A program made the position numbers and the translations under genes. DNA of 64,000 nucleotides, taken from NCBI RefSeq assembly GCF_053078305.1, contig NZ_CP166879.1. The stretch is one strand, 5' to 3'. The notes beneath the pieces were generated by a model. The model did not search any database. It was not told where the DNA came from and saw only the letters and a list, made by a program, of their open reading frames with translations. Positions 1,727-10,531 of the stretch are shown piece by piece; the first letter of the stretch is position 1; the number at the start of each line of letters is the position of its first letter.

Positions 1727-1803
1727 TATCTGGCCCTGCTGTCTTTGAACTGAATGCATATTTTGTTGATAAATAAAGATTATGTGTTTTTGATTTTCGT
1801 TTT

Positions 1804-1828
1804 GTATGCCTTTTTGTATGCCTTTTTT
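1804..1828. repeat. Direct repeat gtatgcctttttgtatgccttttt, distal island-end copy
   Basis: Tandem GTATGCCTTTTT x2. An identical copy lies at 10389-10412 next to int and attL. These are candidate integrase arm-type binding sites. Confidence 0.6.
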
Positions 1829-1982
1829 GAAAAAGATACCCTTGTTGTTTGATCGTCGATAACGGGTATCAATGTGCACATGCAAATCGATGGCGTTTAT
1901 GTGTGCGCTGTCGAACGTTTGAAAATGGTTTTAGGGCGGTTTTAATGCTGGTTGATGTGGCGCTCTGTGGCGCTCGTTTTGG

Positions 1983-2066
1983 TGTGCTGGTGGCGGGGGT
2001 CGAACCCGCATACATGATCAGCCTGTACAGGCTGGCACCGACTCTACCCGTTGAGCGTACACCAGC
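1983..2066 (-). pseudogene. tRNA-like element 1 with intact acceptor stem, D-arm and T-arm but an aberrant anticodon region and 3' tail
   Basis: The minus strand reads GCTGGTG-TA-CGCTCAACGGGTAGAGT...GCGGG-TTCGACC-CCCGC-CACCAGC-A. It has a perfect 7-bp acceptor pairing, a perfect 5-bp T-stem with a TTCGACC loop, and no canonical anticodon loop or CCA. Confidence 0.4.
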
Positions 2067-2087
2067 AAAAAAGCGATGAGGTTGTTG

Positions 2088-2184
2088 GCTGCTGGTGGTG
2101 GGGGTCGAACCCACATAAACATCCCGCTTTCTGGAAGCTATACAAGCGGACGCCGCTTTACCGATTAAGAGTACACCATACAGC
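2088..2184 (-). pseudogene. tRNA-like element 2, more degenerate
   Basis: It shares a T-arm (GTGGG-TTCGACC-CCCAC) and a CACCAGC acceptor 3' strand with element 1. The 5' half is interrupted. Confidence 0.3.
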
Positions 2185-2262
2185 CAGGTAAAATAGTAAT
2201 CATGCGTTATGTGCGGGTAAAGTCTGTTTCGTCTGGTAGCACCAGATGAACGGGTATCATTA

Positions 2263-2327
2263 TTTCACCTGATTTCACGTGATTTCGCTTAATTTCACAA
2301 AAATCACCTTCTTTCACCTTCTTTCAC
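2263..2327. repeat. Array of six (A/C)TTTCAC direct repeats spaced about 10 bp apart
   Basis: The sequence reads atttcacctgatttcacgtgatttcgcttaatttcacaaaaatcaccttctttcaccttctttcac. The helical-phase spacing suggests a protein-binding array, for example for Int arm-type sites, Xis or a regulator. Confidence 0.45.
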
Positions 2328-2461
2328 AAAAAACAAATCATCATTAAAGCGCCTGATTCGCTCTCTGATGCGTTTTGGTGTTTTTGTGGCGTCCGTGATG
2401 CCCTGAAAGGGGATTTTTGCGATAGCGGCGCAAATATAACGGTTGCTGCTGGTATCTGTGG

Positions 2462-2869
2462 TTAGTCTTGCGTGATTTTATTGGCGTGCTTCTTTCTCAG
2501 TCGTCGTATGATGTCGTAAATATGGGTTTCGGATATTGCGTACTCTTTGCGTAATGCCTGCAATTTTTCGCCGTTATCCCACCTGTAGTAAATCTCGTAT
2601 TCGCGCAATGCTGCGAAAAGTGATCTGCCTGTTGGAAGGTAAAGACTTCGCCCACCAGCATAGAAGGCGATTGCAGCGACAACCCGCTTTGCGATTCTGA
2701 AAGCGTCTGCCTCCTCCATGCCATTACGGGTAAGTTCCGCTACTGAATGCGACACGATATCAGCAAGCGAATCACACCATGCATCACCTGGTTTATCTCC
2801 GTTGTCTATGGCGTCGATGAATTTAAGCCGCTCGATGTCTTTTGGTACGTGATGGGTTTGCTCGTTCAT
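2462..2869 (-). CDS. Mor-family (phage Mu middle operon regulator-like) transcriptional activator
   Basis: 135-aa ORF. The GGRSLYLPTG motif and the C-terminal HTH YAISETHIYDIIRRLRKK parallel Mu Mor's GGGQVYIPRG and YGVTFNTVYKAIRRMRR. Confidence 0.55.
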   Translation of the reverse strand: MNEQTHHVPKDIERLKFIDAIDNGDKPGDAWCDSLADIVSHSVAELTRNGMEEADAFRIAKRVVAAIAFYAGGRSLYLPTGRSLFAALREYEIYYRWDNGEKLQALRKEYAISETHIYDIIRRLRKKHANKITQD

Positions 2870-8029: not shown

Positions 8030-8120
8030 ACTTTGCGTTCCTTTTGTTTCAGGCGCTAACTTGCCTAAACTTGTTCAAGGATATGCAAACACGGTAAAAG
8101 CTGGCATTGCGGAATATTAC

Positions 8121-8146
8121 GAAAAAAGCCCGTAATATTACGGGCG
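8121..8146 (-). terminator. Rho-independent terminator ending the int-orf298 transcription unit
   Basis: Perfect 18-bp palindrome gcccgtaatattacgggc, followed on the minus strand by TTTTTT. Confidence 0.65.
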
Positions 8147-8166
8147 GTCATATGTTCAGAAGTCTG

Positions 8167-9063
8167 TCAGTCGTCAACGTCTGCAAGCCACTTACCTATG
8201 CATGTTGGTGTGGCACCGATATCAACGCCTGCTTTGGTTAGTGCGCGGCTTAACTTGCTGTGACCGTTTTCAAGCGCCCTTCGTGGGTTTGACGCCTCTT
8301 CTTCTCCGGCTATAGCGGTGATTAGTCTTTTGATAACTCTGGCCTGAAGATTGGTTGTTTTCTTTGATGGGGGTGGTTTATTGATGTTTAATTCATCCAT
8401 GTTTTCAATAGAAGCGGTACGCCCTCCGTTTATGGCTAAATCTATCTCACTTCTGGAAATAAAAATATCGTTACGTGATATATCCCATCCCTGTAATAAA
8501 ATCGCAGCTTTAAAATCATCCTCGTCATCGTTATCGATTATCTGAATGTATTTAGTATTTGTTGTATCGTGAAATGATAATCTTTCAATGTCTGCGCTGT
8601 TAGCCTTTACATTAAGCAATCCATCAGCTTTAACATATATTTCTTTTGCGGGTGTTATTATTTGTGCGTTTTTTATCTCTGGCTCATCTTCAGCAAAAAT
8701 ATTCATGCTGAAATAATCACCATATGATGAGTAATGATAGTTTATGTTGAGTCCTGCATGTGCATAATAAAAAACATCTATTGGAGTGAGTAGCTTATTT
8801 ATAGATGTGGCATCAATGATTACATTGCAATATTCATTTGTGTAATGCTGGTATAATGTTTTATTAGCACTGATAAGCTCAGGCTTTACCCCTTCATAAT
8901 ACTTTAATGTCAGTTTTTCATTTATATTAATGCGATACAAAAAACGCATCCTCCTCGTAGCGATGAAATGAAGCAAATCATCAACGTCACACTCAAGCCT
9001 TCTGGCTGCCTTGTCTAACGGGTAATAATCCCTTTCAGGAAGGTTTATTTTTTTGTTTGCCAT
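8167..9063 (-). CDS. AT-rich cargo gene of unknown function (298 aa) with an N-terminal HTH-like segment
   Basis: It lies immediately downstream of int, 5 nt apart, in the same transcription unit. Its GC content is much lower than that of its neighbours. PLDKAARRLECDVDDLLHFIATRRMRF looks like an Xis/MerR-type HTH. No other recognisable domain was found. Confidence 0.5.
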   Translation of the reverse strand: MANKKINLPERDYYPLDKAARRLECDVDDLLHFIATRRMRFLYRININEKLTLKYYEGVKPELISANKTLYQHYTNEYCNVIIDATSINKLLTPIDVFYYAHAGLNINYHYSSYGDYFSMNIFAEDEPEIKNAQIITPAKEIYVKADGLLNVKANSADIERLSFHDTTNTKYIQIIDNDDEDDFKAAILLQGWDISRNDIFISRSEIDLAINGGRTASIENMDELNINKPPPSKKTTNLQARVIKRLITAIAGEEEASNPRRALENGHSKLSRALTKAGVDIGATPTCIGKWLADVDD

Positions 9064-9067
9064 GCCC

Positions 9068-10348
9068 TTAACCGTTAACCATTTTTAACCCACGATAGCC
9101 ACCCGTGGCGCTTACGCTCCCGCTGGCAGCTGCCTCTACAAAATCCCCCCACCACGCCATTAACGGGCGTCGCTGCTCGAGATAGGTTGAGCGGTTGTAC
9201 GCACGGCGAACCTCGTTTTTATCTATGTGTGACAATGCCGCCTCGATTACGTCAGAGTCAAAACCTTGCTCGTTAAGTGCGGTACTTGCTATTGAGCGCA
9301 AGCCATGAGCAACCAGCCGCCCACTAAAACCCATGCGTTTTATTGCTGCGTTTGCTGTTTGTACGCACATATGGCGCTGCGGGTCGCTGTTGTGTGGAAA
9401 TATAAACTCACGATGCCCGCTTATTGGCTTCATGACGTCCAGAATGGCTAACGCCTGCTTCGAGAGTGGTATTACGTGTTCCCTGCGTTGTTTAAGTCTG
9501 TGCTCTGGTATGCGCCATTCCTTCACCTCAAAATCAATTTCACACCAGCGCGCGCCAGCTGCTTCACCTGGTCGGCAAATTGTCAGTAGCTGCCACTCAA
9601 TGACCAGCCGCGTTTGTCGTTCCACCCGTGCCGTTGCCAGCTTCTGCATAAATTCGGGGAGTTCTTCAGGGCGTATTGCTGGCATGTTCTTAACGCTTGG
9701 CGCGTTAAATGCCTTGCTTATCTCTGATGCCGGATTCGCGGCAATCATTCCGGTATTAACGGCGTAATACATGACCTCATTGATTCGCTGTGCTGTCCTT
9801 CTGACGGTATCTAATTTCCCCTGGGCGGCTAATGGTTTTAATGCTTCGATGAAATTGCTTGCTATCAGGTCTGCTATTGGCCTGTTACCGACTGACGGGA
9901 ATACATTACGCTCCAGCGAACGCCATATATCGCGTAGTGTATCTTCTGCGAGTCCTTGCCCTTTTTTAAGTTCAAACCAGAGCGTAGCTACATGCCTGAA
10001 GGTGTTCTCTCTCTTCATCACTTCACTAAGGCGCTGTTTCTCTCTGTGCTCTTTTGGGTCAATGCCACCAGAAAGAAGCGCTCTGTATTCGTCTTTTATC
10101 TTTCGCGCGCCCGCAATGCTGATTTCTGGATATGCGCCAATGCTTAACATGGCCCGTTTTTTTGTGTGTGGCTTGTAGTAGCGGTAACGCCACAAGCAAG
10201 AGGCGCTTTTGTGCTTAATCACCAGTTCCAGCCCTTCGCCGTCAGTGATGAAAAGGTCCTTTTTTTCGTTGCTGGCTTTTCGCTGGAGGCTTTTTATCGT
10301 TGCGGGTGATAAAGACTTAACTTTTTTGGTCACCGGTTCAACTCCCAT
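9068..10348 (-). CDS. int: P4-type tyrosine integrase (site-specific recombinase)
   Basis: 426-aa ORF with an N-terminal DUF4102-like arm-binding region and the C-terminal catalytic motifs HGLRS and YLEQR..W...V. It lies adjacent to the tRNA 3' end. Confidence 0.85.
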   Translation of the reverse strand: MGVEPVTKKVKSLSPATIKSLQRKASNEKKDLFITDGEGLELVIKHKSASCLWRYRYYKPHTKKRAMLSIGAYPEISIAGARKIKDEYRALLSGGIDPKEHREKQRLSEVMKRENTFRHVATLWFELKKGQGLAEDTLRDIWRSLERNVFPSVGNRPIADLIASNFIEALKPLAAQGKLDTVRRTAQRINEVMYYAVNTGMIAANPASEISKAFNAPSVKNMPAIRPEELPEFMQKLATARVERQTRLVIEWQLLTICRPGEAAGARWCEIDFEVKEWRIPEHRLKQRREHVIPLSKQALAILDVMKPISGHREFIFPHNSDPQRHMCVQTANAAIKRMGFSGRLVAHGLRSIASTALNEQGFDSDVIEAALSHIDKNEVRRAYNRSTYLEQRRPLMAWWGDFVEAAASGSVSATGGYRGLKMVNG

Positions 10349-10388
10349 AAGCTGTTAAAGGCATATGCAAATCTGTGTTTTTTCCGGC

Positions 10389-10412
10389 GTATGCCTTTTT
10401 GTATGCCTTTTT
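10389..10412. repeat. Direct repeat gtatgcctttttgtatgccttttt, int-proximal copy
   Basis: Identical to the 1804-1828 copy, between the int start and the tRNA. Confidence 0.6.
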
Positions 10413-10531
10413 AATCTTGCTTATACGCTATCAAACTGGCCCAAACTGAACAATAAAAAACCCGCGTTCCTTGTCTGGCGCGGGTTTGCTTTGTTTAACT
10501 TGCCGTAACTTGTCTTTACTTGGTGTCGATT

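What the first reader, a model, noticed from the sequence alone, without database searches (positions are those of the whole stretch)
1731..10531. Compact P4/PICI-like satellite-type island integrated at ileX
In K-12 nothing lies between yqjH and ileX (recalled). Here 8.8 kb is inserted exactly at the tRNA 3' end. Its module order reads int, cargo ORF, alpA, three paralogs, two small ORFs, an ATPase-type Rep, iterons, SSB, a PerC-like and a Mor-like regulator. There are no structural or lysis genes. This is the architecture of phage satellites and phage-inducible chromosomal islands that are mobilised by helper phages. A degenerate copy of the tRNA 3' end at 1731-1751 and the identical 24-bp repeats at 1804 and 10389 delimit it.
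Basis: partly seen in the sequence, partly recalled or inferred. Interest (0 to 1): 0.7.

Follow-up and report, generated by a model that had tools for sequence, protein, structure and literature searches.

The report
Phage-satellite (PICI) island at ileX
An 8.8-kb mobile island of the PICI phage-satellite family is inserted at the end of the ileX tRNA gene; the kind is known, but its last module (a Mu-type late activator plus two tRNA look-alike RNAs shared with Mu-like prophages) suggests, without proving, that it depends on a Mu-like helper phage.

Summary
K-12 has 53 bp between nfeF (yqjH) and ileX. Here about 8.8 kb lies there, and only 7 of 5,426 complete E. coli genomes carry it at this site. 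All genes face one way: P4-type integrase, a 298-aa winged-helix protein, alpA, three immunity cassettes, orf104, DUF4222, RepA helicase, iteron origin, SSB, PerC, a Mor/C-type activator and two tRNA-like genes.

- The "three paralogs" are three isrK/C4-antisense-RNA/icd cassettes, each with its own specificity.
- The 24-bp repeats lie inside both ends. They are probably integrase arm sites, not boundaries.
- The real repeat is the tRNA 3' end, and its left copy has lost 4 nt.
- The "cargo" gene always follows this integrase type.

The island fits the four-zone Gram-negative PICI plan. Its replication zone is about 85% identical to an O157 PICI that carries capsid and terS genes. It is not P4-like, because sid, psu, delta, alpha and cos are absent. 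It has no recognisable packaging gene.

Its late zone points to Mu-like prophages. The activator's best phage homologue is theirs. The tRNA-like RNAs occur elsewhere only in them. Eleven of 13 island-bearing genomes carry such a prophage, against 4% overall. This helper assignment is inferred, not shown.

The parts
1731..1741 (.). attL core: TGG-CCCTGCTG, a copy of the tRNA 3' end (TGGTGGCCCCTGCTG) that is 4 nt short. Island-specific DNA starts at 1742.
   Evidence: Alignment with the K-12 empty site. The same junction is in L001. The full core is present in L146-148. The mdtP insertion defines the same island end, TCTTTGAACTGAATGCAT.
1804..1827 (+). Two tandem GTATGCCTTTTT units; putative integrase arm-type site on the P' arm.
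   Evidence: The only four exact copies in the window are here and at 10389-10412; 0 of 100 shuffles reach four. The integrase has an Arm-DNA-bind_3 domain. Function is inferred.
1985..2066 (-). tRNA-like RNA gene tl1. Acceptor, D and T arms are intact; the 'anticodon' arm is a 6-bp stem with a 4-nt loop. PGAP calls it tRNA-Tyr.
   Evidence: Rfam tRNA 35 bits against a gathering score of 29, with the anticodon arm skipped. ARAGORN rejects it. Cloverleaf minimum-free-energy fold. 86% identical to the element between the F-like and G-like head genes of Mu-like prophages. Covariation.
2088..2182 (-). tRNA-like RNA gene tl2, a second allele (PGAP: tRNA-OTHER).
   Evidence: Alignments A2 and A6. 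About 80% identical to the allele at the same position in other Mu-like prophages (L140-L142).
2262..2335 (-). Phased GTGAAA repeats: GTGAAAGAAGGTGAAAGAAGGTGA...GAAATCACGTGAAATCAGGTGAAATAATGATACC. Candidate pac-site mimic or protein-binding array.
   Evidence: Repeat family D8. It is the best local match in the whole window to the first 130 nt of the Mu-like phage left end (TTTTnGTGAAAGnAGGTGAAA, 19/21; 1 of 200 shuffles scores as well). Nearly invariant among island variants. Weak evidence: the core resembles a Shine-Dalgarno sequence.
2462..2869 (-). Mor/C-family transcription activator (135 aa).
   Evidence: PHROG 532 'late transcriptional activator', 2.7e-28. Pfam Mor on the same protein (P0011). 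47% identical to the Mor-family gene that precedes the lysis genes of the O157 Mu-like prophage. All 19 phage-collection matches are Mu-like phages or Mu-like insertions within Stx-converting phage records.
2983..3255 (-). PerC-family regulator (90 aa).
   Evidence: Pfam PerC, 131 bits.
3266..3676 (-). Single-strand DNA-binding protein (136 aa).
   Evidence: Pfam SSB, TIGR00621.
3921..4119 (.). Replication origin: seven AAGTGAGTA iterons in two groups on either side of an AT-rich stretch, directly 3' of repA.
   Evidence: All six exact copies in the 64 kb lie at 3927-4103. Repeats D2, D7 and I1. GC 0.43. Same layout as PICI origins (PMC6092414).
4119..5516 (-). RepA-type replicative helicase (465 aa, AAA_25) with a separate N-terminal domain.
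   Evidence: Pfam AAA_25, 9e-43. PHROG 2850 end to end. 35-40% identical to phage primase/helicases. PGAP: 'helicase RepA family'.
5513..5812 (-). DUF4222 protein (99 aa), overlapping the repA start.
   Evidence: Pfam DUF4222, 1.8e-23. Always next to repA in relatives.
5886..6200 (-). orf104, no known family. Its start overlaps the icd3 stop (ATGCGTGA).
6193..6649 (-). Immunity cassette 3 (allele Y): promoter-like 6642-6613, isrK-like 6606-6528, C4 RNA 6502-6415, icd3 6363-6193.
   Evidence: Rfam C4 73.3 bits against a gathering score of 45. Loops CUAUGUU/CUGCUAA pair with AACAUAG/UUAGCAG both upstream and at the icd ribosome-binding site. Allele shared with L139 and L146.
6650..7106 (-). Immunity cassette 2 (allele X): promoter-like 7099-7070, isrK-like 7063-6985, C4 RNA 6959-6872, icd2 6820-6650.
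   Evidence: Rfam C4 72.3 bits. Loops CUGUAGU/CUGUCAA pair with ACUACAG/UUGACAG. Allele shared with L001 and L004.
7107..7600 (-). Immunity cassette 1: promoter-like 7574-7545, isrK 7538-7462, C4 RNA 7437-7350, icd1 7295-7107.
   Evidence: Rfam C4 77.6 and isrK 63.8 bits. NCBIfam Icd-like, 3.7e-16. Loops CCUUUAUC/GUUCCAA pair with GAUAAAGG/UUGGAAC.
7826..8029 (-). alpA (67 aa), the AlpA/excisionase-type regulator that is the PICI master activator in relatives.
   Evidence: Pfam Phage_AlpA and HTH_17. PHROG 66. Role taken from PMC6092414 and PMC11773190.
8100..8117 (-). ATATTCCGCAATGCCAGC: resembles the box just downstream of the phage Mor/C gene and upstream of the lysis genes. Followed after 16 nt by TATCCT.
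   Evidence: The only match in the window at <=4 mismatches (2 mismatches). The phage has two such boxes, each followed at 16-17 nt by TAnnCT. Not conserved in the mdtP variant (5 mismatches) and absent in L139 and L003. A weak lead.
8167..9063 (-). 298-aa protein: N-terminal Xis/MerR-type winged helix, variable low-GC middle, conserved helical C-terminus.
9068..10348 (-). Tyrosine integrase of the P4 type (Arm-DNA-bind_3 + Phage_int_M + Phage_integrase).
   Evidence: Pfam. NF007246, 528 bits.
10389..10412 (+). Two tandem GTATGCCTTTTT units; putative arm-type site on the P arm.
10458..10487 (-). Island-borne hairpin followed by a T run on the - strand. It would terminate the ileX transcript before int.
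   Evidence: Hairpin listed. The sequence shows the T run on the - strand. Function is inferred.
10532..10607 (-). tRNA-Ile2 (ileX, anticodon CAU). Its last 15 nt (10532-10546, TGGTGGCCCCTGCTG) are the attR core.
   Evidence: ARAGORN and Rfam. PGAP 'tRNA-Ile' in relatives.

Best explanation
This is a phage-inducible chromosomal island (PICI) of the Gram-negative type, a satellite that needs a helper phage to spread.

Shown:
- A P4-type tyrosine integrase placed it in the 3' end of ileX. The island's own end restores the last 15 nt of the tRNA.
- The same element has also landed in a look-alike site inside mdtP, and one genome holds three copies.
- All genes read in one direction, in four zones: (1) int, a winged-helix partner protein and alpA; (2) three tandem isrK/C4-RNA/icd immunity cassettes; (3) DUF4222, RepA helicase, iteron origin and SSB; (4) a late zone with PerC, a Mor/C-type activator and two tRNA-like RNA genes.

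Inferred mechanism:
- At rest, each cassette makes a C4-type antisense RNA. Its two loops pair with matching sites on the transcript. One site covers the ribosome-binding site of the small icd gene. This blocks icd translation and, by polarity, stops transcription from reaching the replication genes, as in P1 c4-icd-ant and P4 CI. Three gates of different specificity stand in series.
- A helper-phage signal raises alpA expression, as in EcCICFT073 and EcCIMP1. AlpA switches on the operon and, with Int, excision.
- RepA and SSB replicate the circle from the iteron origin.
- Late functions then redirect the helper.
- The island has no capsid or terminase gene. It would therefore be packaged as multimers in full-size helper heads from a DNA site it carries.

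Most likely helper (probability about 0.4-0.5): a Mu-like prophage of the type found in E. coli O157:H7. I call it Sp18-like, but I did not compare it directly with Sp18. The confidence given here (0.72) is for the PICI-family satellite assignment, not for the helper's identity.
For: - Insertion and att sites.
- Mobility: the same island lies inside mdtP in STEC17-183 and in all 10 contexts read for the Mor protein cluster; JNEC-KY203 has three copies.
- Gene families.
- One-way organisation: + strand ORFs hit nothing.
- Origin: six exact iterons, all within 3927-4103.
- Immunity cassettes: Rfam C4 at 72-78 bits against a gathering score of 45, with loop and target changes matched in each cassette.
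- Homology to a PICI with capsid and terS genes: about 85% DNA identity over DUF4222-RepA-SSB-PerC.
- Modularity: the same SSB-PerC-Mor-tRNA-like late zone follows a different integrase and a primase/DUF927 replicon at yicC-dinD. A Salmonella island at ssrA has int, the 298-aa homologue, an HTH_17 (AlpA-like) regulator, C4, a primase and Mor.
- Published PICI criteria and zones: PMC6092414, PMC10111431, PMC10085698, PMC11773190.
- Helper link:
  - Mor/C is 47% identical to the Mu-like prophage's activator, and matches are found only in Mu-like phages or Mu-like insertions in the phage collection.
  - tRNA-like alleles tl1 and tl2 match two alleles found only between the F-like and G-like genes of these prophages.
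  - These are the island's only DNA matches in 50,697 phage records.
  - 11 of 13 island genomes carry the Mu-like transposase, against 232 of 5,426 overall.
  - Sp18, the reference O157 Mu-like prophage, is reported intact and efficiently packaged (PMC2669165).
  - A Pasteurella PICI is reported to have a Mu-like helper (PMC6092414).
Against: - No excision, induction, packaging or transfer can be shown from sequence.
- No terS, capsid-morphogenesis or rpp gene was found, and no lambda cosN or P2/P4 cos. By SatelliteFinder's scheme it would probably be only a 'Type C' PICI (three of five core parts), a class its authors treat as ambiguous.
- The left att core in this window has lost 4 nt, which may hinder excision of this particular copy.
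- Helper link: co-occurrence is not corrected for relatedness, and STEC or bovine lineages are rich in prophages.
- Two island genomes lack the Mu-like phage.
- The pac-like match is short and resembles a Shine-Dalgarno sequence.
- The box upstream of alpA is not conserved in the commoner mdtP variant.
- Late-zone genes may simply have been captured from a phage without any present function (PMC10111431).
Confidence: 0.72

Rival explanations
1. It is a PICI-family island, but its helper is not Mu-like (for example a lambdoid or P22-like phage). The Mor/C gene and tRNA-like genes would then be late-zone DNA captured from a Mu-like phage, now serving the host or nothing.
For: - PICI late zones are reported to capture helper or other prophage genes (PMC10111431).
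- The replication zone is shared with an O157 PICI whose capsid, decoration and terS genes look lambdoid or HK97-like.
- EcCIMP1, which also lacks packaging genes, uses the phage Kapi1.
- The alpA-upstream box is not conserved across variants.
- Two island genomes have no Mu-like phage.
Against: - The Mor + tRNA-like module is kept intact at the end of islands with three different integration sites and two different replicons.
- The island holds both phage alleles of the tRNA-like RNA.
- Co-occurrence is strong: 11/13 against 4.3%.
- No lambda cosN was found.
Confidence: 0.25
2. It is a decayed PICI remnant. It lost its packaging module, can no longer be mobilised, and persists only by vertical descent.
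For: No terS, capsid or cos was found. The attL core is 4 nt short here. The yicC-dinD relative has frameshifted perC and truncated ssb.
Against: - All ORFs in the window copy are intact.
- Copies 94.7-99.8% identical in DNA lie at ileX and mdtP and at another site, and one genome has three copies.
- Other ileX copies have a perfect 15-nt core.
- Immunity alleles are being reshuffled among islands.
- Validated PICIs without packaging genes exist: EcCICFT073 and EcCIMP1.
Confidence: 0.15
3. It is an integrative, self-replicating element that does not depend on phages, such as an integrated plasmid or a mobilisable island moved by conjugation.
For: RepA-type helicase, iterons and SSB form a self-sufficient replicon. 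Close repA-DUF4222 copies (92%) lie on two large E. coli plasmids.
Against: - No relaxase, oriT, partition or copy-control gene was found.
- alpA, C4/icd immunity, PerC and Mor are phage or satellite functions.
- The whole plan matches PICIs.
- The helicase's relatives in the phage collection are replicative primase/helicases.
Confidence: 0.06
4. It is a P4-like satellite that uses a P2-type helper.
For: P4-type integrase at a tRNA; alpA/vis-like gene; CI/C4-type RNA immunity as in P4.
Against: No sid, psu, delta, epsilon or alpha primase was found by Pfam or PHROGs. No P2/P4 cos at up to 3 mismatches. Fillol-Salom et al. separate PICIs from P4 on exactly these grounds.
Confidence: 0.02

Closest known systems
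E. coli O157:H7 PICI between phoQ and roxA (L003). From memory of the gene order it corresponds to O-island 51/CP-933C; this was not checked here. PMC6092414 says EcCICFT073 and EcCI042 correspond to O-island 51.
   Same: int, then alpA-type HTH, Icd-like immunity region, DUF4222, RepA helicase, SSB and PerC, all one way. About 85% DNA identity across DUF4222-RepA-SSB-PerC.
   Different: The O157 island continues with major capsid, head decoration and terS genes. The window island has a Mor/C activator and two tRNA-like genes instead. The integrase and site also differ.
EcCIMP1 and EcCICFT073 (experimentally mobilised E. coli PICIs without terS)
   Same: int, alpA as master activator, Ash/immunity region, replicase with adjacent iteron origin, PerC homologue, no structural or lysis genes, size about 9-12 kb.
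   Different: They use primase-type replicases. EcCICFT073 carries lambda-like cosN sites, which are absent here. Their helpers are Kapi1 or lambda/phi80-type phages. Neither paper mentions a Mor/C gene or tRNA-like genes.
PmCI172 of Pasteurella multocida (PICI with a Mu-like helper)
   Same: Precedent that a PICI can use a Mu-family myovirus (PMC6092414).
   Different: PmCI172 encodes a capsid-protein homologue and makes small capsids. It comes from a different genus, and no sequence comparison was made here.
Satellite phage P4
   Same: P4-type integrase at a tRNA gene; RNA-based immunity of the CI/C4 family guarding the replication operon; a satellite-encoded activator of helper late genes (delta) as a functional parallel to Mor/C.
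   Different: No sid, psu, delta, epsilon, alpha or cos. P4 has one CI unit; this island has three heterospecific units.
Phage P1/P7 c4-icd-ant immunity region (Rfam RF01695, RF03163)
   Same: A C4 RNA with two loops that pair with a1/b1 upstream and a2/b2 at the icd ribosome-binding site; icd is translationally coupled to the next gene. The P1 mechanism itself is recalled knowledge.
   Different: Three cassettes in tandem with different loop and target sequences. The guarded genes are a replication operon rather than an antirepressor.

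Membership tests
Gram-negative PICI (criteria of Fillol-Salom 2018; zones of Mageeney 2023) | Integrase at one end, with its own chromosomal att site. | tested here: met
   int at 9068-10348, next to ileX. The 15-nt core is repeated at the far end. The site is empty in almost all E. coli.
Gram-negative PICI (criteria of Fillol-Salom 2018; zones of Mageeney 2023) | alpA-type regulator downstream of int, same orientation; whole element transcribed one way. | tested here: met
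   alpA at 7826-8029. All family-bearing ORFs are on the - strand, and + strand ORFs hit nothing.
Gram-negative PICI (criteria of Fillol-Salom 2018; zones of Mageeney 2023) | Replicase with an adjacent origin made of two iteron sets around an AT-rich stretch. | tested here: met
   RepA helicase at 4119-5516. Seven AAGTGAGTA iterons at 3927-4116 around an AT-rich spacer. Replication itself was not tested.
Gram-negative PICI (criteria of Fillol-Salom 2018; zones of Mageeney 2023) | Immunity-RNA ('Bro') zone between alpA and the replication genes. | tested here: met
   Three isrK/C4/icd cassettes. C4 and isrK hits in Gram-negative PICIs are noted in PMC10111431. There is no Bro-N protein here.
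Gram-negative PICI (criteria of Fillol-Salom 2018; zones of Mageeney 2023) | No phage structural or lysis genes; size about one third or less of a phage genome. | tested here: met
   8.8 kb; none found.
Gram-negative PICI (criteria of Fillol-Salom 2018; zones of Mageeney 2023) | Helper-phage-dependent induction, specific packaging, high-frequency transfer, interference with the helper. | not testable with these tools
   Only indirect evidence: several insertion sites and multiple copies, and co-occurrence with a Mu-like prophage.
PICI as scored by SatelliteFinder (five core parts; PMC10085698) | Integrase, alpA/stl-type regulator, primase-replicase. | tested here: inconclusive
   All three functions are present by Pfam and PHROGs. 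SatelliteFinder's own profiles were not available, and the replicase is a RepA-type helicase.
PICI as scored by SatelliteFinder (five core parts; PMC10085698) | Capsid-morphogenesis gene and small terminase. | tested here: not met
   No such family in any ORF. The element would be at most 'Type C'.
P4-like satellite (SatelliteFinder core: int, psu, delta, sid, alpA, epsilon, alpha) | psu-delta-sid operon, alpha primase, epsilon. | tested here: not met
   No matches. Only int and alpA are shared.
P4-like satellite (SatelliteFinder core: int, psu, delta, sid, alpA, epsilon, alpha) | P2-type cos site. | tested here: not met
   0 matches at <=3 mismatches. The cos sequence was recalled from memory.
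C4/CI antisense-RNA immunity (Rfam RF01695; P1 c4-icd type) | The RNA reaches the Rfam gathering score and has loops complementary to sites upstream and at the icd ribosome-binding site. | tested here: met
   72.3-77.6 bits against 45 for all three. 7-8-nt complementarities are at the expected places in each cassette, with cassette-specific sequences. Repression itself was not tested.
Decoding tRNA | Cloverleaf with a 7-nt anticodon loop. | tested here: not met
   tl1 passes the Rfam tRNA threshold (35 against 29) only with the anticodon arm skipped. ARAGORN rejects it. The fold shows a 4-nt loop. Acceptor, D and T stems are supported by covariation.

The most novel reading that the evidence does not exclude
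The island may belong to an undescribed PICI subfamily that parasitises Mu-like transposable prophages of E. coli (the O157 type, Sp18-like). It would have no capsid or terminase genes. Instead it would rely on three things: (i) a C/Mor-type activator that cross-talks with the helper's late promoters, much as P4 delta does with P2; (ii) a DNA array that imitates the pac region in the helper's left end; and (iii) non-decoding tRNA-mimic RNAs that exist as matched alleles in helper and satellite. The island carries both alleles. Their function is unknown; candidates are a helper-specific recognition signal, an RNA-processing signal or an anti-defence decoy.
Probability: 0.35. Interest if true: 0.7.

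Novelty: new variant of a known kind. Interest (0 to 1): 0.5.

Why it matters
As a PICI the island is ordinary. Thousands of such elements are catalogued, and elements with only three of the five core parts are common.

Four points are worth a specialist's time:
1. Its late zone holds no known hijacking gene. It holds a Mu-type late activator and structured tRNA-mimic RNAs that otherwise occur only in one family of Mu-like prophages. This gives a concrete, testable helper candidate for an E. coli PICI class that lacks packaging genes.
2. The tRNA-mimic RNA family is supported by covariation, sits at a fixed spot between two head genes of the phage, exists in at least two alleles, and has no known role.
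3. The island shows how C4-type immunity cassettes are shuffled between satellites. This copy has stacked both alleles of the second cassette, giving three gates of different specificity.
4. The 298-aa winged-helix protein that always follows this integrase type has no known family and a fast-changing middle. It is a candidate sensor or recombination accessory factor.

What helper factor switches on alpA in Gram-negative PICIs was still open in 2018 (PMC6092414). The box upstream of alpA offers a weak but testable idea.

Tried and rejected
- Lambda cosN (GGGCGGCGACCT, <=2 mismatches): no site in the island, and the window total is at chance level.
- P2/P4 cos: none.
- Scan of viral contigs with GTGAAAGRAGGTGAAA: more than 120 unrelated hits, because the motif contains a Shine-Dalgarno-like core. 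It is useless as a marker and weakens the pac-mimic argument.
- Mor protein against one genome per species: no relatives found. The word-indexed protein search found only near-identical E. coli proteins.
- The idea that the 24-bp repeats are the att core: rejected by the empty-site alignment.
- The idea that the left att copy is simply degenerate: refined. It is a hybrid attL with a secondary 4-nt loss.
- A C-activator box upstream of alpA as a general feature of the family: not conserved in the mdtP, yicC or O157 relatives.
- tl1 as a true tRNA-Tyr (PGAP's call): rejected on the loop structure.
- YrlA/Y-RNA-like assignment: 13.8 bits against a gathering score of 69, so rejected.

Full report
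**1. The observation**

ARAGORN and Rfam place one tRNA (anticodon CAU, the ileX type) at 10532-10607 on the - strand. In K-12 (L002) the nfeF/yqjH stop codon and this tRNA are 53 bp apart. A megablast of window 1400-10900 against 5,426 complete E. coli genomes matched 5,425. Only 7 hold at least 80% of it in one place. The typical genome matches just the roughly 700 bp of flanks. The 8.8 kb is therefore a rare insertion, flanked directly by core genes: nfeR-nfeF on one side and ileX-mug-rpoD on the other. The segment is not conserved in all E. coli, and it is not part of a larger prophage.

**2. Ends and att sites**

Aligning both junctions with the empty site gives these sequences:

| Site | Sequence |
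|---|---|
| Empty site | ...GCTATATC TGGTGGCCCCTGCTG GACTTGAACC... |
| Right junction | island ...GTGTCGATT + TGGTGGCCCCTGCTG GACTTGAACC (tRNA) |
| Left junction | ...GCTATATC TGG-CCCTGCTG TCTTTGAACTGAATGCAT... (island) |

- The same island inserted in mdtP (L004) has the same two island ends around a look-alike target, CCCGGGATG..TTGAAC.
- Three further ileX copies (L146-148) have the full 15-nt TGGTGGCCCCTGCTG at the left junction.
- The repeat that bounds the island is thus the last 15 nt of the tRNA, and the island's own end rebuilds the tRNA.
- The window copy (and L001) has lost 4 nt from the left core.
- The 24-bp repeats are real and unique in the window (four exact 12-mers; 0 of 100 shuffles reach four). 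They sit inside both arms. The integrase has an arm-binding domain, so I read them as arm-type sites. This is an inference.
- A hairpin plus T-run at 10458-10487 on the - strand lies between the tRNA and int. It would end the tRNA transcript (inference).

**3. Gene content**

Every ORF with a family hit lies on the - strand:

| Coordinates | Feature |
|---|---|
| 9068-10348 | Integrase (Arm-DNA-bind_3, Phage_int_M, Phage_integrase; NF007246, 528 bits) |
| 7826-8029 | AlpA/HTH_17 regulator |
| 5513-5812 | DUF4222 |
| 4119-5516 | AAA_25 RepA-type helicase |
| 3266-3676 | SSB |
| 2983-3255 | PerC (131 bits) |
| 2462-2869 | Mor/C-family activator |

Ten + strand ORFs hit nothing. No capsid, portal, terminase, tail, holin or lysin family appears. 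All six exact AAGTGAGTA copies in the 64 kb lie at 3927-4103, directly after repA, in two groups around an AT-rich stretch. This is the origin layout described for PICIs.

**4. The 'three paralogs'**

Rfam finds three C4 antisense RNAs: 7350-7437 (77.6 bits), 6872-6959 (72.3 bits) and 6415-6502 (73.3 bits), against a gathering score of 45. Each is preceded by an isrK-type element and followed by an Icd-like ORF. The 457-nt units align throughout.

In each unit the two C4 loops are complementary to a pair of short sites upstream, within the isrK-like part. They are also complementary to the same pair downstream, where the second site covers the icd ribosome-binding site. The sequences differ by unit:

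| Unit | C4 loops | Targets |
|---|---|---|
| 1 | CCUUUAUC / GUUCCAA | GAUAAAGG / UUGGAAC |
| 2 | CUGUAGU / CUGUCAA | ACUACAG / UUGACAG |
| 3 | CUAUGUU / CUGCUAA | AACAUAG / UUAGCAG |

- Each icd stop overlaps the next start (ATGCTTAA at 7114; ATGCGTGA at 6200), and each unit has a promoter-like site.
- This is the P1 c4-icd arrangement, whose mechanism I recall from the literature. P4's CI RNA is a relative.
- Mageeney et al. note that the Rfam C4 and isrK models hit several Gram-negative PICIs.
- The four related islands where Rfam finds C4 at the gathering score (L001, L004, L139, L146) have two units; L003 gave no C4 hit at that threshold although its annotation lists Icd-like genes.
- Their second unit comes in two alleles. 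X is in L001 and L004; Y is in L139 and L146. The window has X and Y in tandem, most simply through unequal recombination between two islands.
- First-unit loops also differ among islands. The cassettes look like exchangeable immunity determinants.
- Inferred role: three serial gates that keep orf104-DUF4222-repA-ssb-perC-mor silent until induction. They may also repress incoming elements of the same immunity types.

**5. The 'cargo' ORF (8167-9063)**

- It has no hit in Pfam, PHROGs, NCBIfam or PADLOC. Its GC is low, 0.34-0.41.
- The indexed search found only about 10 clusters in E. coli and Salmonella. These have conserved ends and a variable middle.
- A profile search of 1.84 billion representatives found 175 proteins of 240-320 aa that match at both ends. 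None of 62 has a useful Pfam domain.
- With those 62 sequences the AF2 model reaches pLDDT 72.5, above 90 at both ends.
- The gene follows this integrase type within a few bases in E. coli and in a Salmonella diarizonae island at ssrA. Otherwise identical ileX islands carry alleles only 54% identical.
- I therefore read it as a DNA-binding partner of the integration and regulation module with a fast-evolving sensing or interaction region, not as free cargo. Its function is unknown.

**6. What family it belongs to**

Published definitions:
- Fillol-Salom et al.: own att site, int then alpA, one-way transcription, replicase with an iteron origin, no structural genes.
- Mageeney et al.: four zones, namely integration, Bro/immunity-RNA, replication and a dynamic late zone.
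- SatelliteFinder: five core parts, namely int, regulator, primase-replicase, capsid morphogenesis and terS. Elements with three of the five ('Type C') number over 6,000 and are regarded as ambiguous.

How the island compares:
- It meets every architectural criterion but lacks the two packaging parts.
- It is homologous to a full PICI. The O157:H7 island between phoQ and roxA (L003) shares DUF4222-RepA-SSB-PerC at about 85% DNA identity, then continues with major capsid, decoration and terS genes.
- Validated PICIs without terS exist: EcCICFT073, which uses cos sites, and EcCIMP1.
- It is not P4-like. sid, psu, delta, epsilon, alpha and the P2/P4 cos are absent.

**7. Evidence of mobility**

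- The island's Mor protein cluster is recorded on hundreds of contigs. All 10 contexts read show the same island splitting mdtP, as in the complete genome STEC17-183.
- The late-zone segment occurs in 13 of 5,426 complete genomes at 15 places, and JNEC-KY203 has three copies.
- A third variant, between yicC and dinD (L139), joins a different integrase and a toprim + DUF927 replicon to the same SSB-PerC-Mor-tRNA-like end.
- The element is thus modular and has moved repeatedly.

**8. The late zone and the helper question**

Downstream of mor lie two tRNA-like genes that PGAP calls tRNA-Tyr and tRNA-OTHER.
- tl1 reaches the Rfam tRNA threshold only when the anticodon arm is skipped. ARAGORN rejects it. 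It folds as a cloverleaf whose third arm ends in a 4-nt loop.
- Homologues exist in about 160 other complete genomes. In each of the eight I inspected, the element fills the gap between the F-like (minor head) and G-like (virion morphogenesis) genes of a Mu-like prophage, antisense to those genes.
- Two phage alleles exist. One matches tl1 (86%) and the other tl2 (about 80%); the island carries both.
- Over 10 distinct sequences the acceptor, D and T stems are 93.6% paired, against at most 63.5% when partners are slid. Five of 16 pairs change on both sides, and 0 of 500 shuffles reach the covariation score.
- This is a conserved structured RNA that cannot decode.

The Mor/C protein:
- It is 47% identical to the Mor-family gene that sits just before the lysis genes of the same prophages, where C sits in Mu.
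- All 19 matches in 50,697 phage records are Mu-like phages or Mu-like insertions within Stx-converting phage records.
- The island's only DNA matches in that collection are the tRNA-like elements of two Mu-like insertions.

Co-occurrence:
- A 450-nt piece of the Mu-like transposase occurs in 232 of 5,426 genomes.
- I compared the place counts for a chimeric query (Mor segment + transposase piece) with those for the Mor segment alone. By this comparison 11 of the 13 island genomes have the transposase.
- Three of them appear by name, and one was inspected and looks intact.
- Fisher's exact test gives p = 5e-14 and an odds ratio of 129.
- This is not corrected for relatedness, and these are mostly STEC and bovine strains.

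Two weaker leads:
- The best local match in the whole window to the first 130 nt of the phage's left end falls in the island's GTGAAA array at 2262-2335 (19/21; 1 of 200 shuffles scores as well). The exact left end was taken from the annotated insertion in LC727881. The matching phage segment lies at nt 35-55, between the first two terminal repeats. That is where, from memory, the pac site of Mu was mapped. However, the motif contains a Shine-Dalgarno-like core and is common elsewhere.
- An 18-mer just after the phage Mor/C gene has its only window match (2 mismatches) 71-88 nt upstream of alpA. In the phage it recurs before the protease gene. In all three places a TAnnCT hexamer follows at 16-17 nt. 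The box is not conserved in the mdtP, yicC or O157 relatives.

Context: Sp18, the O157 Sakai Mu-like prophage, is reported intact and efficiently packaged, and a Pasteurella PICI is reported to use a Mu-like helper. I did not compare the prophages studied here with Sp18 itself. I put the Mu-like helper reading at about 0.4.

**9. Mechanism: shown and inferred**

Shown:
- Site-specific insertion at ileX with reconstitution of the tRNA, and reuse of a similar site in mdtP.
- Gene families and one-way layout.
- Three C4 cassettes with internally matched specificities.
- An iteron cluster after repA.
- Late-zone homologies to Mu-like prophages, and co-occurrence with them.

Inferred:
- C4-mediated silencing of the replication operon.
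- alpA-driven induction by a helper signal.
- Int-mediated excision, possibly aided by AlpA or the 298-aa protein.
- RepA/SSB replication.
- Cross-activation between island and helper through Mor/C.
- Headful packaging of multimers (about 4.4 units per roughly 39-kb head) from the GTGAAA array.
- Re-integration through the arm sites and the 15-nt core.

**10. Verdict**

The element is a new variant within a well-known family, not a new kind of system. The points that deserve follow-up are the link to Mu-like prophages, the tRNA-mimic RNA family, the stacked immunity cassettes and the integrase-linked winged-helix protein.

Noticed in passing
L005 6996-7075; L008 27578-27656; L140 8997-9084; L141/L142 2500-2587; L143 2496-2575; L149 36304-36383: A family of Mu-like prophages in E. 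coli carries a non-decoding tRNA-like gene. It exactly fills the gap between the minor-head (F-like) and virion-morphogenesis (G-like) genes, antisense to them. There are at least two alleles. Acceptor, D and T stems covary. No function is known.
   Followed up: partly
NZ_AP045179.1 (JNEC-KY203), seen: One complete genome holds three copies of the island's late-zone segment at different chromosomal positions, which suggests recent repeated integration.
   Followed up: no
L004 10588-11001 and 19433-20506; L129-L138: The commoner version of the island sits inside mdtP and splits this efflux-pump outer-membrane gene. All 10 contexts read for a protein cluster seen on hundreds of contigs were at this site. 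The target resembles the tRNA core (CCC....TG...TTGAAC..GCGAC).
   Followed up: partly
L004 about 11432-11530; L139 about 10890-10990: The mdtP and yicC variants carry a further tRNA-like allele (tl3) with yet another middle arm. The number and type of these elements varies between islands.
   Followed up: partly
L144 8182-8544 and 8741-18503: Salmonella enterica subsp. diarizonae has an island next to ssrA (tmRNA) with the same int + 298-aa-homologue head, an HTH_17 (AlpA-like) regulator, AntA and Bro-N genes, one isrK/C4 cassette, a toprim/DUF927 primase and a 190-aa Mor-family gene. The Mor-bearing PICI type is therefore not confined to E. coli.
   Followed up: partly
L139 19624-19689: Rfam 'int-alpA RNA' (RF02996, 64 bits) lies just downstream of int in the yicC-dinD island. 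No such hit was found at the corresponding place in the window.
   Followed up: no
L003 11686-12630: The O157 PICI has genes annotated as Icd-like, but no C4 or isrK hit at Rfam gathering scores. Its immunity RNAs may be too diverged or lost.
   Followed up: no
window 10458-10487: The island brings its own hairpin plus T-run just downstream of ileX. It replaces the native bidirectional terminator, which now lies 8.8 kb away at 1695-1722.
   Followed up: no
window 30931-31080, 31307-31455, 34921-35069, 22941-23011, 729-804: Ordinary chromosomal RNA features elsewhere in the window: two Sib antitoxin RNAs, an FMN riboswitch, and REP-like naRNA4 matches.
   Followed up: no
H140/H141 (CP061267.1, NZ_CP031350.1): Two large E. 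coli plasmids carry repA-DUF4222 copies 92% identical in protein to the island's, so relatives of the replication zone also sit on plasmids.
   Followed up: no
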